In this document: positions 10,887-63,511 of the stretch, one piece after another | How the letters are laid out: each line of letters opens with the position of its first letter | Position numbering within the stretch: position 1 is the stretch's first letter | From: Candidatus Parcubacteria bacterium | Lineage (GTDB): Bacteria; Patescibacteriota; Minisyncoccia; Phycocordibacterales; CAIZLB01 | Length of the DNA stretch: 64,000 bases | Direction of reading: 5' to 3' | Assembly (NCBI GenBank): GCA_039795875.1 | Contig: JBDKKY010000001.1 | Coordinates: forward strand, 750 to 64,749 | Program-made: the position numbers and the translations under genes | The notes under the pieces: model-generated | Told to the model about the DNA's origin: nothing | What the model saw: the letters and a program-made list of their open reading frames with translations, nothing else | Databases searched by the model: none

Positions 10887-10890
10887 CAAT

Positions 10891-10930
10891 AAACATAAAA
10901 GCATCCTTCGGGGTGCTTTTATGTTTATTG
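10891..10930 (+). terminator. intrinsic terminator after tRNA-Leu
   Basis: near-perfect hairpin AAACATAAAAGCATCC-TTCG-GGGTGCTTTTATGTTT with a TTCG tetraloop and U-rich tail. Confidence 0.75.
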
Positions 10931-11076
10931 CCAGAGGGACGGGACGAGAAAGCCGGAACCCTGTTGCCATGTCCCAACGGGACGGCAACAAGTGAGGCGG
11001 GGCTGCGCAAAAATTGCGCAGCAATTTTATGTGTAGCCGAGCCCCTCCCTAGCCTTGTAAGGGTCGAGTCCCACCA

Positions 11077-11105
11077 TTGACTCCTCGAACTACTAGTTAT
11101 ATAAT
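11077..11105 (+). promoter_or_regulatory. consensus sigma70 promoter TTGACT-17 nt-TATAAT
   Basis: exact -35 and -10 consensus with a 17-nt spacer, inside the GC-rich island. Confidence 0.5.
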
Positions 11106-11129
11106 ACCGATGGGCACGTGCCCCTACCT

Positions 11130-11276
11130 ATGAGACCCCTAACCGTCCTGTTCTTCCTCGCCCTTATCTGGACCGTCAACCGACACAACAACTCCAGCAA
11201 AAAGAGCCATCCGCCTACTGTAACCACCGAAACAGTAACGGCAGGAGCATCCATCCCCAACCCTGATCAGAAATAA
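11130..11276 (+). CDS. putative 48-aa single-TM peptide
   Basis: hand-translated MRPLTVLFFLALIWTVNRHNNSSKKSHPPTVTTETVTAGASIPNPDQK; downstream of the consensus promoter; GC-rich. Confidence 0.25.
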   Translation: MRPLTVLFFLALIWTVNRHNNSSKKSHPPTVTTETVTAGASIPNPDQK

Positions 11277-11472
11277 CACTGGTCAGAACCTTCCATCACC
11301 TGCAGCCTTGCTGCATGAGTGATTGGGAGGATTTTTTTTATTTGGGCCTTATTTTAAAAGATTATTTACCCTTTTAATCTCACTCGAGTCCTTGACTTTT
11401 ATACATATATATTATAGGATGATACACGAGCTTATTTGAAGGCTTTAAACCTTCCAGAACCATAAGCTCACC

Positions 11473-11739
11473 TTGAAAACGCAAAAAATGAACACCAACC
11501 GCATCGCAATTGGGCTTTGTCTGCTCGGAGCGATTGGCGTCCTTCATTGGGCCGCCACTCATCCAGCCGATAAAGCATCACCGGACACGGCCGTCACCAC
11601 GACATCTGCGCCCAAAAAAACCAAAACCCATAACCCGGGAGTCGTAGCGCAGCTGGAGGGTCACGCCTCCTTCAACCAAACTGCCCCCACAAAACTCGAA
11701 GTCAAACCCGAAATCACCATCCACCCCATCTCCCAGTAA
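11473..11739 (+). CDS. small secreted protein (signal peptide) in the GC-rich island
   Basis: 88 aa; N-terminal hydrophobic segment IAIGLCLLGAIGVL; about 58% GC. Confidence 0.45.
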   Translation: MKTQKMNTNRIAIGLCLLGAIGVLHWAATHPADKASPDTAVTTTSAPKKTKTHNPGVVAQLEGHASFNQTAPTKLEVKPEITIHPISQ

Positions 11740-11742
11740 AAC

Positions 11743-24105: not shown

Positions 24106-25112
24106 AGCGCAGCTTTTACAATATCCCCAGCATCAAGCTTATACTCTTTCATCAACTCTGCCGGTGTTCCTGATTGACCAAATCGATCATGTATCCCGAT
24201 TCTTTTAACTGGCTTTGGACATTGTTCAGATAAGATTTCACATACCAAGCTGCCAAATCCAGCAGCGATCTGATGCTCTTCTACTGTCACAACTTTTTGT
24301 GCATGTTTCGCATATGCAATCAGAGTTTTTTCATCAAATGGTTTTATCGTGTGAAAATTGATAACGACTACTTTTTTCCTGTGAGTCTTTTCCAGTTCGA
24401 TGCAGGCTTTGATAGCGTTAAACACCAGCGGGCCAGTGGCACAGATGAGCACGTCAAAATCGACTCCTTGGGTTACACCTTCAGTCATATATAAAATATT
24501 GGCTTTGCCAAAAACAAATGGAGTTTCTTCGGTGGTAATCACTGGTGTTTTTTCTCGAGCTAGGCGGATGTAGACAGATGATGTTACTTTTTTATCAAAT
24601 GCCGCAACAGTGGCTTTTCGTGCTTCGATGACGTCGCAAGGATAAATAATCTGCATGTTGGGAGTTACACGCATGAGGGCAATATCTTCAAGTGCCTGGT
24701 GGGATCCCCCATCAGGTCCGACAGAAAGTCCTGAGTGCGATCCTGCGATGATGACCTTGCGATCGTTATAGCAAATAGTGGTCCTGATCTGCTCCCAGTT
24801 ACGTCCTGGACTGAACATGGCATATGACGTTATAGCTGGCACCTTGCCCATAGCAGCCATTCCTGAGGCCACTGAGGCCATGTTTTGCTCAGCTACACCC
24901 ATCTCGACGAAGCGGTTGGGGAATTTCTTTTTAAATGCAGACATCTGCGTTGATTCTGTTAAATCGGCACATAGTCCTACTATAGATTCGTCCTTTTCCC
25001 CGGCCAACACAAAACCATCACCAAAACCTTTTCGCGTGTACACTTGCTCTACATCTTCGTCGAAAAGTTTTGGATTGAGGTTTGATGGGGCGTATAACAT
25101 ATATAGATACAT
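24102..25112 (-). CDS. transketolase C-terminal subunit (split transketolase, pyrimidine-binding plus C-terminal domains)
   Basis: FVEMGVAEQNMASVASGMAAMG, GSHSGLSVGPDGGSHQALEDIALMR; the N-terminal subunit gene is not adjacent. Confidence 0.8.
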   Translation of the reverse strand: MYLYMLYAPSNLNPKLFDEDVEQVYTRKGFGDGFVLAGEKDESIVGLCADLTESTQMSAFKKKFPNRFVEMGVAEQNMASVASGMAAMGKVPAITSYAMFSPGRNWEQIRTTICYNDRKVIIAGSHSGLSVGPDGGSHQALEDIALMRVTPNMQIIYPCDVIEARKATVAAFDKKVTSSVYIRLAREKTPVITTEETPFVFGKANILYMTEGVTQGVDFDVLICATGPLVFNAIKACIELEKTHRKKVVVINFHTIKPFDEKTLIAYAKHAQKVVTVEEHQIAAGFGSLVCEILSEQCPKPVKRIGIHDRFGQSGTPAELMKEYKLDAGDIVKAAL

Positions 25113-25334
25113 TATACATTAACAAGGGTGCGGACCAACTTTTTTGTGGTCACAGATAATCTCTTCGCCGTCGCTCAGATATTTGCTCGACCCTTACAGG
25201 GTCAGTACACCTTTTGGATCTTTTGCAGAGCAAAAGCTCTCAAAAGGTTTTACGCCTTGGGTCCCAACCCAAGACTCACCCGACTCGCCCGTTTTTCCAC
25301 AAGGAAAAACATGGCTCCGTCTCGCACATGTACG

Positions 25335-25364
25335 AAAAAAGAGCGGAACTATCCGCTCTTTTTT
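25335..25364. terminator. bidirectional intrinsic terminator downstream of tRNA-Ile
   Basis: AAAAAA-GAGCGG-aactat-CCGCTC-TTTTTT. Confidence 0.7.
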
Positions 25365-25370
25365 GTCATG

Positions 25371-25443
25371 TGCGCATGCTTGGGTTCGAACCAAGGACCT
25401 TTCGAGTATCAGTCGAATGCTCTACCAACTGAGCTACACGCGC
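25371..25443 (-). tRNA. tRNA-Ile (GAT)
   Basis: GCGCGTG acceptor, anticodon arm TTCGA-CTGATAC-TCGAA, T-arm CTTGG-TTCGAAC-CCAAG. Confidence 0.85.
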
Positions 25444-25669
25444 ATTATTCGTCTTCGTTCTCGGACCGCACGAAGCAGTCCTTCACTCATCCTCATAATG
25501 AAGAAGACAAGACATTCTCCGCGCTCCGACGCTTCACGATAGAAGCGCTGCGCGCATCGTCGTAAATGCCTACAGAGACGTGGACAATCTACAACGACGA
25601 ATAAACGATATTATACACAAAAACTGCCATTTGGCAATTTATTCTGATTTTAAATAGCTATTTTGGACC

Positions 25670-26272
25670 TTATTTAGCAACAGCTTTTTGTACGAAGAAC
25701 TTACCAGCGTCCTCCATTTCTGTCAAAGACTCACAGGCATTTGTTCCAGACAATCGGCCTGCATTTGTAGCAGTTGCCTTACCTCGTAGCTTAGGGTCAG
25801 ACTCTGTCGAACTTACAAGTTCACCCAATGAACCATATGTGTCAACTCGCTTCTTAATATACATCTCAACCGCAGTACGTGATTCTGCCCCACTGTCGGC
25901 AACAAAGACTTTGGTGTCTGATTTTGCGGGGAATGCCGGAGCTGACGCCGCATCTGTATACCAGGCAAATGTACATGAAGTATTTCTCTGTACTATGGCT
26001 GATCTACTATAATTACAAGCTGAACGCTCCATACATCCATCTCCACCTTGTCCTGGGACGTATCTACCTTGTCCTGGGACATATCCACCTTTTGTGACAT
26101 CACCTGATACAGCGCCTGCTGTAGGAGTTGTTGCAGTAGTAGGGTTATTTATCAATACTGCCTTAGTTGTGGCGGCTTGATTATCTTTATTGCTAATCGA
26201 TGTGCGTACACTGTAGACAATTGACGCTACAATAATTGCCAAAAGAACAACAATAGTTAATGTTTTTTTCAT
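25670..26272 (-). CDS. hypothetical signal-anchored secreted protein encoded in the 16S/tRNA-Ile spacer
   Basis: 200 aa; N-terminal TM LTIVVLLAIIVASIVY; contains a 21-nt tandem duplication encoding YVPGQG RYVPGQG. Confidence 0.5.
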   Translation of the reverse strand: MKKTLTIVVLLAIIVASIVYSVRTSISNKDNQAATTKAVLINNPTTATTPTAGAVSGDVTKGGYVPGQGRYVPGQGGDGCMERSACNYSRSAIVQRNTSCTFAWYTDAASAPAFPAKSDTKVFVADSGAESRTAVEMYIKKRVDTYGSLGELVSSTESDPKLRGKATATNAGRLSGTNACESLTEMEDAGKFFVQKAVAK

Positions 26273-26566
26273 ATACTAATATTGTATCACCTACTTCAAG
26301 AAAAAGAAAAAACCTTTATGAACATAATTCACACAGGTCTTTTCTCAACAAATAAGAATTTTCACAAATCAACGCTTGTTACAAGTTAAATAATTAAATC
26401 TATTATTTTGTTCTGTTTGGCCAGTCTTTCCTGGGGTCAAAATCTTTACGTGATTCCCACGCTCTAAATGCGACGAGTTAGAGTCTCGTTTATACAGTGC
26501 AAGCAAAGTATAAGAACGACCGCTATAAATTTTATACCCTCCCTAAAGAGGACATAAAACAGTTTT

Positions 26567-28110
<1,544 letters not shown>

Positions 28111-33838: not shown

Positions 33839-34432
33839 TTATAATGAAAACATCTCTAACCAATTCTGTAACTCAGAGATGCGGGCTTGTGTGATAGCAC
33901 TCTTGCAACTTGAGATTGTAAAAGGTTGCAAACTTCCACCTTCATATTGATGTCCTTCAGCTTCACACTCACTGTCTCGATAAGCCAACCACTTCTCTTG
34001 GGATTTTTTGATCTTTGGACCGATATCTGACAAAAATTGCTCTTTCTGTGTTACTTGTGTGTATAGAGTATTCATTTGAACATCAAGATTTTGAAAAACT
34101 TCATACGCACATTGGTTCATGGGCTGTTGTTGGAGTAATTCCGCACATTCATCAGAACTTGTTGCAACATCTTCCGAAGTAGTCGTGGTGGGCATTTGCA
34201 TTACTACCCCAGATTCAACAGGCACCGGCAAGCTATATCTTTCTCCCAATCGAAAAAATACTATTGGTAAAATGATCAGCAGCACAATTACGCTTAATAG
34301 TTTTGAGTACCAGGTGACATGATTCCATTGGATAGACATATGTAAATTATACACTACCCCACGAAAAAACCCTCCCGAAGGAGGATCTTTTCTACCAATT
34401 AATTTGGCGCGACTTTGTTTTCTCGGCTGCAA
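33839..34432 (-). CDS. DUF1311 (LprI-like) domain membrane-anchored protein
   Basis: C-terminal W..YRDSECE...GGS....C.....T..R..EL pattern typical of DUF1311. Confidence 0.45.
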   Translation of the reverse strand: MQPRKQSRAKLIGRKDPPSGGFFRGVVYNLHMSIQWNHVTWYSKLLSVIVLLIILPIVFFRLGERYSLPVPVESGVVMQMPTTTTSEDVATSSDECAELLQQQPMNQCAYEVFQNLDVQMNTLYTQVTQKEQFLSDIGPKIKKSQEKWLAYRDSECEAEGHQYEGGSLQPFTISSCKSAITQARISELQNWLEMFSL

Positions 34433-34463
34433 AGCAGCTTAGAAAACAAGAAGTGCCCTTTAG

Positions 34464-34540
34464 TGGCGCGGTCGACCGGACTTGAACCGGCGACCTTCCG
34501 CGTGACAGGCGGACGCTCTAACCAGCTGAGCTACGACCGC
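34464..34540 (-). tRNA. tRNA-Asp (GTC)
   Basis: GCGGTCG acceptor, anticodon arm TCCGC-CTGTCAC-GCGGA, T-arm GCCGG-TTCAAGT-CCGGT, CCA encoded. Confidence 0.85.
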
Positions 34541-34748
34541 ATACTAAGACATTATACATAGATTTCCTTTAAAACCAAGGCCCTTGCTGACAGAATTGAG
34601 GACCGACAAAACACAATAGAACATAAGGAGTGGCGAAAAAGGCTTGACGGAGGATTTGCGAATGCAAATCTGAGTCAGAGGAAAATTCCCCTTGGGATGG
34701 GACCCAAGGGGAGTTATTCCGGTCTTTTTCAGAGCGACGTTGTTCTGT

Positions 34749-34822
34749 GTCAGTAGGTGGAATCGAACCACCGACCTTGGGCTTATGAGTCCCACGCTCT
34801 AACCGACTGAGCTATACTGACT
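34749..34822 (-). tRNA. tRNA-Met (CAT), elongator type (or tRNA-Ile2)
   Basis: GTCAGTA/TACTGAC acceptor with 1:72 paired, loop CTCATAA, T-arm GGTGG-TTCGATT-CCACC. Confidence 0.8.
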
Positions 34823-34831
34823 CTATCTTGT

Positions 34832-34902
34832 TGCGGAGCCCGGATTTGCACCGAGGCTTTCAGGTTATGAGCCTGACGAGCTACTGTTACTCCACCCCGC
34901 TA
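34832..34902 (-). tRNA. initiator tRNA-fMet (CAT)
   Basis: AGCGGGGTGGAG...GCTCGTCAGGCTCATAACCTGA...CAAATCCGGGCTCCGCA closely resembles bacterial initiator tRNA; 1:72 mismatched (A-A). Confidence 0.75.
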
Positions 34903-35849: not shown

Positions 35850-36059
35850 ATAGGTACATTATATCATCACTGCACAATCGCCCCAAGCAGGATCATGGCG
35901 GTGGTAACAATCGCCAGGAAACCGAGGATAAATTTAATTGCAGTTGAATCAAGCATGTTGAGATTATAACAAAAAAAACAGAAAACCGCCCGAAGGCGGT
36001 TTTCTGCAATTTTTTGAATTTAGGTTAGAGATCTAGCTCTTAAACTAATCTGTTGAGGA

Positions 36060-63421: not shown

Positions 63422-63424
63422 ATG

Positions 63425-63511
63425 CGGAGGATGTGAGATTCGAACTCACGGGGCAGTTTCCCACCCGACAGTTTAGTAAACTGTTGATTTAAACCACTCA
63501 TCCAATCCTCC
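63425..63511 (-). tRNA. class II (long variable arm) tRNA, Ser-like, with apparent anticodon ACT
   Basis: GGAGGAT/ATCCTCC acceptor, 3-bp D-stem, anticodon arm ACAGT-TTACTAA-ACTGT, long variable arm, T-arm GTGAG-TTCGAAT-CTCAC. Confidence 0.65.

What the first reader, a model, noticed from the sequence alone, without database searches (positions are those of the whole stretch)
34541..34748. 208-bp structured spacer between tRNA-Asp and tRNA-Met: candidate small RNA
tRNAs in this cluster are otherwise 10-90 bp apart. This spacer contains a 9-bp GC hairpin CCCCUUGGG-(6 nt)-CCCAAGGGG with a U-rich flank, and a second hairpin UUUGC-AUUC-GCAAA. On the minus strand it reads …CUGUCAGCAAGGGCCUUGG…, faintly reminiscent of the SRP-RNA domain IV region (GGAAGCAGCCAAGG), though not convincing by eye. 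The track ORF 34544..34795 overlaps tRNA-Met and is not credible, so an ncRNA co-transcribed with the tRNAs is the better explanation.
Basis: seen in the sequence. Interest (0 to 1): 0.5.

Follow-up and report, generated by a model that had tools for sequence, protein, structure and literature searches.

The report
Conserved folded element beside tRNA genes
The long gap between two tRNA genes holds an ordinary promoter plus a 129-base self-folding element that recurs, with its pairing preserved, at a different place in a related Parcubacteria genome. It matches no described RNA family and is not the SRP-like RNA first suggested.

Summary
A 206-nt spacer (34541-34746) lies between tRNA-Met and tRNA-Asp, both on the minus strand, and both reported hairpins are there.

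The spacer has two parts:
- **34541-34617:** the tRNA-Asp promoter. TGTATAAT sits 8-10 nt before the tRNA in five loci. This stretch is unstructured and contains the "SRP-like" string.
- **34618-34746:** a discrete 129-nt folded element starting 1 nt after tRNA-Met. Two closing stems enclose two hairpins (z = -7.9 on the plus strand).

A covariance model built from the window copy alone found a full-length homologue (E about 1e-29) in one ENA metagenome sequence recovered in two assemblies (L091/L092). That organism's prepilin peptidase is 66% identical to the window's. There the element sits 1 nt after a small ORF's stop codon, with no tRNAs nearby. It has four robust compensatory pairs and a near-invariant 43-nt core.

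Orthologous intergenic sites in sister lineages lack the element, so it is insertion-polymorphic. Fold energy, G.U pairs and purine-rich linkers all favour the plus strand, antisense to the tRNAs. No plus-strand promoter is visible.

There is no significant Rfam hit, for SRP or any other family. My best reading is an undescribed dispersed structured element whose GC hairpin acts as a terminator-like boundary. A free-standing small RNA remains possible.

The parts
34830..34901 (-). tRNA-Met (CAT) no. 1, first gene of the tRNA-Met operon. Its promoter, TATATTATACT at 34946-34936, is conserved in relatives.
34747..34821 (-). tRNA-Met (CAT) no. 2. Its discriminator is A34748, and the element starts 1 nt after C34747.
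34618..34746 (+). The 129-nt structured element. The strand given is the one that folds best. Homology to L091 1209-1081 begins and ends exactly at these borders.
34618..34623 (+). P1, 5' strand (AGAACA), pairing with 34741-34746 (UGUUCU). In L091 the pair is AAACAC/GUGUUU.
34635..34644 (+). P2, 5' strand (GAAAAAGGCU), pairing with 34721-34730 (GGUCUUUUUC). It is an A-tract/U-tract helix with one compensatory pair and two conserved G.U pairs.
34645..34677 (+). Part of the 43-nt core that is near-invariant between the two homologues. It also carries a GGAGG-8 nt-AUG-CAA-AUC-UGA mini-ORF.
34680..34720 (+). Hairpin B, 17 bp with one bulge. It has A-rich and U-rich flanks, which is the anatomy of a bidirectional intrinsic terminator, and three compensatory pairs relative to L091.
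34551..34578 (-). tRNA-Asp promoter: -35-like TTGGTT (34578-34573), a 16-nt spacer, TG (34558-34557) and TATAAT (34556-34551), ending 10 nt before the tRNA 5' end.
34575..34593 (-). The 'SRP-like' string CUGUCAGCAAGGGCCUUGG. It is unstructured, not conserved, and overlaps the -35 region.
34464..34540 (-). tRNA-Asp (GTC), with an encoded CCA end; a separate transcription unit.
34360..34463 (-). tRNA-Asp 3' trailer with a long hairpin, followed by a canonical terminator (CCUCC-UUCG-GGAGG then GUUUUUU).

Best explanation
The spacer is a composite of two things.

(a) The 77 nt next to tRNA-Asp are that gene's own sigma-70-type promoter region, so tRNA-Asp is a separate transcription unit.

(b) The 129 nt next to tRNA-Met (34618-34746) are a self-contained folded element. 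Two closing stems joined by purine-rich linkers enclose hairpin A and the GC-rich hairpin B. It belongs to an undescribed, lineage-restricted family of structured intergenic elements in Parcubacteria, and it sits in different intergenic sites in different genomes, each time 1 nt after the end of the upstream gene and ahead of the next promoter.

Shown here: its discreteness, its conservation with compensatory changes, its presence/absence polymorphism, and its strand asymmetry.

Inferred: it spreads or is gained and lost as a unit, in the manner of REPIN-, ERIC- or BOX-type dispersed elements. In place, hairpin B with its flanking A and U tracts acts as a factor-independent, two-way terminator. 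That would end the tRNA-Met transcript and block antisense transcription coming from the next promoter. The strand on which the fold is selected is the plus strand.
For: **Promoter.** TGTATAAT is invariant 8-10 nt before tRNA-Asp in five loci whose upstream sequence is otherwise unalignable. The other tRNA transcription units in the window carry a -10 box 9-35 nt upstream, most of them TG-extended. On the minus strand between 34350 and 34960, the only -10 matches of 5/6 or better are the tRNA-Met-operon and tRNA-Asp promoters.

**Element.** z = -7.9 and -5.6. The CM built from the window copy alone hits L091/L092 end to end at 104 bits, E 1e-29. Identity is 75.8% overall, with a 43-nt core carrying one change. 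98.9% of pair cells are paired. An independent MAFFT plus RNAalifold run gives 38 pairs with 4 compensatory.

**Insertion polymorphism.** L091 carries the element between the ORF29 stop codon and the peptidase promoter. The window, L081, L084 and L001 lack it at that site. The window carries it after tRNA-Met2, and L001, L093 and L095 lack it there. The flanks show no homology.

**Terminator anatomy.** The scan calls hairpin B terminator-like. Its dG is -19.7 kcal/mol, and its discriminant score falls within the range of the window's canonical tRNA terminators. The hairpin-B part of the model also matches a generic bidirectional terminator in L045.

**Strand.** MFE is -60.1 against -44.3 in the window and -60.8 against -42.9 in L091. 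Consensus energy is -48.7 against -31.6. Five G.U positions occur in the plus orientation and no A.C. The element's GC skew is +0.29 and +0.25, against -0.08 in the surrounding window.

**Precedent.** Compensatory changes also occur in mobile REPIN hairpins (PMC3116915).
Against: - Only two independent full copies are known, plus one weak possible paralogue at 25228-25327 (19.5 bits). Multi-copy dispersal is inferred from density, not shown.
- The ends are the least conserved part and the centre the most conserved. That is the reverse of transposon-like elements and is typical of functional RNAs.
- There is no target-site duplication. The terminal inverted repeat is only 6 bp, and the linkers are not complementary.
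- No transposase is identified.
- The U tract after hairpin B is short on the minus strand (4 U) and set back 4 nt on the plus strand.
- A terminator role does not explain why P1, P2 and hairpin A are conserved.
- No RNA data exist.
Confidence: 0.45

Rival explanations
1. A free-standing small structured RNA gene on the plus strand, antisense to the tRNAs. It would act in trans or bind a protein, with the 43-nt core as its functional site. Its differing location in the two genomes would reflect gene relocation.
For: - The core is conserved while the closing stems vary and covary.
- All strand-sensitive measures favour the plus strand: energy, G.U pairs, opposed purine-rich linkers able to form tandem G.A pairs, and G-rich skew.
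- Copy number is low, with one clear copy in 64 kb.
- Both copies lie within about 210 nt of the prepilin peptidase gene.
Against: - No plus-strand -10 box of 5/6 or better lies between 34350 and 34812.
- The upstream flanks share nothing between the two copies.
- No terminator follows the 3' strand of P1. The RNA would run into antisense tRNA-Met.
- The element abuts the neighbouring gene by 1 nt in both genomes.
- It is cleanly absent from orthologous sites.
- Its proximity to the peptidase gene is an ascertainment effect, because only peptidase loci were fetched.
Confidence: 0.25
2. One reading: a non-coding RNA on the minus strand, co-transcribed with the tRNAs and released by tRNA processing. 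This would resemble the 3'ETS or ITS spacer RNAs of E. coli tRNA operons, possibly SRP-like.
For: - The element starts 1 nt after tRNA-Met2 and would be transcribed as its 3' trailer.
- The minus-strand fold is still significant, at z = -5.6.
Against: - No SRP or other Rfam hit.
- The minus strand is 16-18 kcal/mol less stable in both homologues, and the five G.U positions become C.A mismatches on it.
- On the minus strand hairpin B comes first and would end the transcript before hairpin A and the 3' strands of P2 and P1.
- The homologue is not in a tRNA operon.
- The element is absent from orthologous tRNA spacers.
- tRNA-Asp has its own promoter.
Confidence: 0.12
3. An ordinary spacer: only a terminator and a promoter, with the remaining structure arising by chance.
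For: - A terminator-like hairpin and a conserved promoter are present.
- The spacer length is normal for this genome.
- Relatives have short spacers holding only a promoter, or a weak hairpin plus a promoter.
Against: - A full-length 129-nt homologue with preserved pairing exists in a genome whose flanking protein is only 66% identical and whose intergenic DNA does not otherwise align.
- z stays at -5.9 after the terminator hairpin is removed.
Confidence: 0.05

Closest known systems
REPIN / REP, ERIC (IRU), BOX and Correia-type dispersed structured intergenic elements
   Same: About 100-150 nt, confined to intergenic space just after gene ends, and folding into stable hairpins. Presence or absence varies between related genomes. 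Compensatory changes maintain the pairing, as reported for REPINs (PMC3116915). Such elements can act as terminators or RNA-stability elements (general knowledge).
   Different: It is not a doublet of inverted identical REPs. The ends are the least conserved part and the centre the most conserved. Only 1-2 copies occur per 64 kb. No RAYT or transposase is known. The fold is branched, with two unlike hairpins inside a closing stem. It comes from Patescibacteria, where I found no report of such elements.
Bidirectional intrinsic (Rho-independent) terminators
   Same: Hairpin B is a GC-rich stem-loop with an A-rich 5' flank and a U-rich 3' flank. It lies between two transcription units. The hairpin-B part of the model matches a generic bidirectional terminator in L045.
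   Different: Hairpin B is embedded in a larger conserved fold (P1, P2, P3, hairpin A) that a terminator does not need. Its U tracts are short or offset compared with the window's canonical tRNA terminators.
tRNA-operon spacer RNAs of E. coli (3'ETS-leuZ, and the ITS of metZ-metW-metV)
   Same: Non-coding sequence lying directly 3' of a tRNA in a tRNA gene cluster (from my own knowledge of Lalaouna et al. 2015; not checked here).
   Different: Those are minus-strand-equivalent processing products conserved within the operon. Here the favoured strand is antisense, the homologue is outside any tRNA operon, and orthologous spacers lack the element.
Bacterial small SRP RNA
   Same: Similar length range, and a short string with some letters in common.
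   Different: No covariance-model hit even at E <= 10. The string lies in the unstructured promoter segment. The element is a branched fold, not a single long hairpin with a domain IV.
Rfam COG3610-DE RNA (RF03066) and PyrR binding site (RF00515)
   Same: These are the best weak cmscan matches on the plus strand, and both show two hairpins in the same order. COG3610-DE recurs for the L091 copy.
   Different: The scores are 15-22 bits against gathering scores of 54-73.5, with E of 0.4-1. The middle hairpin of COG3610-DE is missing. This is chance-level resemblance.

Membership tests
Bacterial small SRP RNA | Helix 8 / domain IV with a GNAR tetraloop and conserved internal loops, as scored by the Rfam covariance model | tested here: not met
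   No SRP hit at gathering score or at E <= 10, on 701-nt and 218-nt slices and on both strands.
Bacterial small SRP RNA | The candidate region is structured and conserved | tested here: not met
   The SRP-like string (34593-34575) lies in the 77-nt segment with z about 0. That segment does not align with relatives except for the -10 box.
Intrinsic terminator | GC-rich stem-loop | tested here: met
   10-bp stem with a 6-nt loop, dG -19.7 kcal/mol.
Intrinsic terminator | A U tract of about 5 or more directly after the stem | tested here: inconclusive
   The minus strand has AAUUUUCC (4 U). The plus strand has UUAUUCC and then GGUCUUUUU, 4 nt after the extended stem. The discriminant score falls within the spread of the window's canonical terminators, but that score is poorly calibrated.
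Intrinsic terminator | Transcripts end there | not testable with these tools
   No RNA data.
Sigma-70-type promoter (tRNA-Asp) | A -10 hexamer with a TG extension at the right distance, conserved across relatives | tested here: met
   TGTATAAT is invariant in 5 loci, 8-10 nt before the tRNA. A -10 box at a similar distance, mostly TG-extended, precedes the other tRNA units of the window.
REPIN / REP | Two inverted copies of the same REP sequence separated by a spacer | tested here: not met
   Hairpins A and B are unrelated in sequence. The element's ends are its least conserved part.
REPIN / REP | Tens to hundreds of copies per genome, plus a RAYT gene | tested here: inconclusive
   There is one clear copy and one weak one in 64 kb, and one copy in about 60 kb of loci from close relatives. 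The rest of the genome was not available, and no RAYT was searched for.
MITE | Conserved terminal inverted repeats and a target-site duplication | tested here: not met
   Only 6 bp pair at the termini, and they differ between copies. The linkers are purine opposite purine. The flanks show no duplication.
Integron attC site | R'' RYYYAAC and R' GTTRRRY core sites at the borders, within an integron | tested here: not met
   By inspection the borders match 5/7 at best in the window and worse in L091. An integrase was not searched for.
tRNA-operon spacer RNA (3'ETS / ITS type) | Conserved within the orthologous tRNA operon and lying on the tRNA strand | tested here: not met
   It is absent from the Met-Asp spacers of L001, L093, L094 and L095. 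The homologue is outside any tRNA context, and the plus strand is favoured.
Integrated island at a tRNA gene | A direct repeat of the tRNA 3' end marking the far border | tested here: not met
   No second copy of the tRNA-Met2 or tRNA-Asp 3' end appears in the window with up to 3 mismatches.
Conserved structured RNA (generic) | Base pairs kept through changes on both sides in independent sequences | tested here: met
   4 compensatory pairs in an alignment not fitted to the structure, and 8 in the fitted one. There are only two sequences, so no statistical covariation test is possible.
Conserved structured RNA (generic) | A discrete transcript with its own promoter and 3' end | tested here: not met
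   No plus-strand -10 box of 5/6 or better, and no terminator after P1. Expression itself cannot be tested here.

The most novel reading that the evidence does not exclude
The 129-nt element is the first glimpse of a new class of small structured RNA in Parcubacteria/Patescibacteria. It would be encoded antisense to its neighbours. Its features are a G.A-rich closing stem, a three-way junction, and an invariant 43-nt core containing a Shine-Dalgarno sequence plus a three-codon mini-ORF. It would be either a trans-acting or protein-binding RNA, or an RNA-level mobile element that moves between intergenic sites.
Probability: 0.3. Interest if true: 0.65.

Novelty: new member of a known kind. Interest (0 to 1): 0.42.

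Why it matters
Patescibacteria have tiny genomes with little spare DNA, and almost nothing is known about their non-coding elements. This 129-nt intergenic module keeps its fold across genera, matches no Rfam family, and occupies different sites in different genomes. It is therefore either a new small RNA or a new kind of dispersed structured element in these organisms.

It also shows how transcription units are bounded here: each tRNA unit has a -10 promoter, mostly TG-extended, a few bases upstream. The practical value is a ready covariance model and a clear set of tests. The present case rests on only two sequences.

Tried and rejected
**Known RNA families.** Rfam at gathering score on the window, and at E <= 10 on 701-nt and 218-nt slices, gave nothing for SRP, 6S, tmRNA or RNase P. 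Only chance-level hits appeared: PyrR at 22 bits and COG3610-DE at 16 bits.

**Protein coding.** The 83-aa ORF has no homologue. The internal ORFs lack ribosome-binding sites.

**Degenerate tRNA.** There is no tRNA hit at E <= 10 and no BLAST similarity to the window's tRNAs.

**Integrated island.** There is no duplicated tRNA 3' end.

**attC, MITE, IS200/IS605 ends and REPIN.** The defining features are not met (see the membership tests).

**DNA-uptake-type repeats.** There are no abundant 9-14-mers. Repeated 13-mers are numerous (157 in 64 kb; my own rough estimate of the chance expectation is of the same order), so the 13-mer shared by 11056 and 25186 is not evidence of anything.

**Homologues elsewhere.** Phage, plasmid and IMG/VR searches found nothing beyond one chance hairpin match.

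**Closest relatives.** The relatives with 74-82% identical peptidase (L081-L083, L099, L104) and the 65% one (L084-L089) all sit on contigs that stop inside tRNA-Met2, or just before it for L089 and L104, so their spacers could not be read. The gene downstream of tRNA-Asp has no homologue at all, which closed that route.

**JGI metagenome scans.** The tRNA-Met 3'-end pattern found nothing. The promoter-plus-tRNA-Asp pattern gave 3 loci, none with the element.

**An error of my own.** My early BLAST runs missed the L091 homologue because that locus was not yet in the database, or not included in it.

**Lagging-strand ssDNA idea.** GC skew indicates that the transiently single strand would be the less stable orientation.

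Full report
**Context.** The window comes from a Parcubacteria (Patescibacteria) genome. The prepilin peptidase gene next to the tRNAs has its best relatives in Parcubacteria-type MAGs, at most 70% identical in the GTDB genome collection and up to 82% in the wider protein database. Its own record is an NCBI MAG with locus tags RJB39_*. All genes around the finding are on the minus strand, in this order:
- prepilin peptidase (35849-34953)
- tRNA-Met (34901-34830)
- tRNA-Met (34821-34747)
- the spacer (34746-34541)
- tRNA-Asp (34540-34464)
- a structured trailer and a canonical terminator (34463-34360)
- an LprI-domain gene

**The observation.** The spacer is 206 nt. The GC hairpin is 9-10 bp with a 6-nt loop and an AAUUUUCC tail. 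The second hairpin is 7 bp. The ORF 34544-34795 starts inside tRNA-Met and has no homologue.

The structure is real. The whole spacer has z = -2.9 on the minus strand and -4.8 on the plus strand. The signal is concentrated in 34618-34746, at z = -5.6 and -7.9. The 77 nt next to tRNA-Asp are unstructured. Removing the GC hairpin still leaves z = -5.9 and -3.6, so there is more than one terminator hairpin here. In a 130-nt scan of the whole window, this is the second most stable locus on the plus strand.

**The tRNA-Asp side is a promoter.**
- In the window, each tRNA transcription unit has a -10 box 9-35 nt upstream, most with a TG extension. For tRNA-Asp it is aTGTATAAT, ending 10 nt before the tRNA.
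- I found the Met-Met-Asp arrangement in four other lineages. The spacer is 92 nt in L001 and L093, 48 nt in L095, and 2151 nt with two protein genes in L094/L096.
- In all of them TGTATAAT is invariant 8-10 nt before tRNA-Asp, while the rest of the upstream sequence does not align.
- So tRNA-Asp is its own transcription unit.
- The SRP-like string overlaps the -35 region of this promoter. No SRP or other family matches either strand, even at E <= 10.

**The tRNA-Met side is a discrete conserved element.** Its predicted fold has four parts:
- a 6-bp terminal stem P1
- purine-rich linkers
- a 10-bp A-tract/U-tract stem P2
- a junction carrying P3 with hairpin A, and the 17-bp hairpin B

A covariance model built from this single sequence found a full-length match at 104 bits, E about 1e-29. 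The match is in L091 and L092, two ENA assemblies of the same sequence; L092 is an exact substring of L091. That organism's prepilin peptidase is 66% identical to the window's.
- The two elements are 75.8% identical. A 43-nt core (P2-P3-hairpin A-junction) has one change, in a loop.
- The L091 copy folds on its own into the same architecture.
- In the structure-fitted alignment, 98.9% of pair cells are paired and 8 pairs changed on both sides. Four of those are in P1 and depend on a 1-nt alignment shift.
- An independent MAFFT/RNAalifold run gives 38 consensus pairs with 4 compensatory changes, one in P2 and three in hairpin B.
- Homology stops exactly at the ends of P1 in both genomes. The flanks share nothing.

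**Different places, absent from orthologous sites.** In L091 the element lies 1 nt after the stop codon of a conserved 29-codon ORF and just ahead of the peptidase promoter (TGTTATACT). There are no tRNAs on the contig. The same ORF29-peptidase interval in the window, L081, L084 and L001 is about 40 nt and lacks the element.

Conversely, the window has the element 1 nt after tRNA-Met2, and L001, L093, L094 and L095 lack it there. Without the element the window's spacer would be 77 nt, within the 48-92 nt range of the relatives.

No other copy was found in about 935 kb of fetched loci, nor in phage, plasmid or IMG/VR collections. Inside the window there is one weak, partial look-alike after tRNA-Ile, at 25228-25327 on the minus strand, scoring 19.5 bits. 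It shares the hairpin CUUGGGWUGGGACCCAAG. I treat it as possible, not established.

**Which strand.** Four measures agree on the plus strand, which is antisense to the tRNAs and, in L091, antisense to its neighbours.
- MFE is -60.1 against -44.3 kcal/mol in the window and -60.8 against -42.9 in L091.
- Consensus energy is -48.7 against -31.6.
- Five positions are G.U in the plus orientation, three of them conserved and one arising independently in each copy, and none is A.C.
- The linkers between P1 and P2 are purine-rich on both sides, so they can form tandem G.A pairs only in the plus orientation. The element is G-rich (skew +0.29 and +0.25) against a background of about -0.08.

With only two sequences this is suggestive, not proof.

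Against a plus-strand RNA gene, there is no -10 box of 5/6 or better on the plus strand between 34350 and 34812. Nothing upstream is conserved between the copies, and no terminator follows P1.

**What it most likely is.** The clean presence/absence at two unrelated sites, the exact borders, the lack of a promoter, and the density of about one copy per 60 kb fit a dispersed, gain-and-loss structured element. That density holds both in the window and in the loci from close relatives. A single-copy RNA gene fits these facts less well.

The position is where a terminator belongs: right after a gene end and before the next promoter. Hairpin B has the anatomy of a two-way intrinsic terminator. I therefore commit, at moderate confidence, to an undescribed family of structured intergenic elements that work in place as transcription boundaries. 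Compensatory evolution is also known in mobile REPIN hairpins, so covariation alone does not prove an RNA gene.

Some features are more typical of a functional RNA and are not explained by a terminator role:
- a conserved centre with variable, covarying ends
- the strand asymmetry
- the conservation of P1, P2 and hairpin A

A free-standing plus-strand small RNA therefore stays a serious rival. "Just a spacer" is largely excluded.

**Limits.** There are only two independent sequences, no expression data, and no access to the rest of either genome. The closest relatives' contigs (65-82% identical peptidase) all break inside or just before tRNA-Met2.

Noticed in passing
window 63424-63511 (-): ARAGORN gives this tRNA-Ser the anticodon ACT, with anticodon loop TTACTAA. 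A34 in a tRNA-Ser is unusual, because AGY codons are normally read by GCT.
   Followed up: no
window 25110-25340 (-): A multi-hairpin non-coding stretch of about 230 nt lies between the tRNA-Ile terminator and the TGTATAAT promoter of a transketolase-like gene. It is among the most stable folds in the window, has no Rfam hit, and is not conserved after tRNA-Ile in L004, L006, L009 or L010. It contains a hairpin 18/19 identical to hairpin B and gives a weak model match (19.5 bits).
   Followed up: partly
window 10930-11110 (+): The most stable fold of the whole window is a GC-rich structured region just after the tRNA-Leu terminator, inside an 855-nt stretch with no long ORF (10888-11742). It has no Rfam hit.
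   Followed up: no
window 34390-34463 (-): A structured trailer of about 75 nt (long hairpin CUUGUUUUCU...AGAAAACAAAG) lies between the 3' end of tRNA-Asp and its canonical terminator. It is absent in L001, where the terminator follows within about 25 nt.
   Followed up: no
window 35867-35956 (-): A conserved 29-codon hydrophobic ORF (MLDSTAIKFILGFLAIVTTAMILLGAIVQ) lies just upstream of the prepilin peptidase gene. It is also present in L001, L081, L084 and L091. The peptidase ATG sits 8 nt after a TGATATAAT box, which suggests a leaderless mRNA.
   Followed up: partly
window 25370-28109 (-): The 16S rRNA gene is followed by 1124 nt containing a 200-aa ORF (25670-26272), then tRNA-Ile and a terminator. 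There is no 23S rRNA in the window. L004, L009 and L010 also show 16S then tRNA-Ile with no 23S.
   Followed up: partly
L090 2613-2689; L093 4120-4196: The second tRNA-Met in these contigs has acceptor halves that do not pair (GTCAGTA.../...CGCCGACA and GTCGGCG.../...CACTGACA). This indicates chimeric assembly across the tRNA, so the downstream sequence may belong to another genome.
   Followed up: partly
window 33839-34432 (-): The LprI-domain gene downstream of tRNA-Asp has no homologue other than itself among 5.8e9 proteins. Its database entry (197 aa) starts at a TTG that overlaps the tRNA-Asp terminator. The ATG at 34339 (166 aa) is the likelier start.
   Followed up: partly
window 34650-34672 (+): Inside the invariant core, GGAGG is followed 8 nt later by AUG-CAA-AUC-UGA (Met-Gln-Ile-stop). 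The same arrangement is conserved in L091. Because the whole core is conserved, its significance cannot be judged.
   Followed up: no
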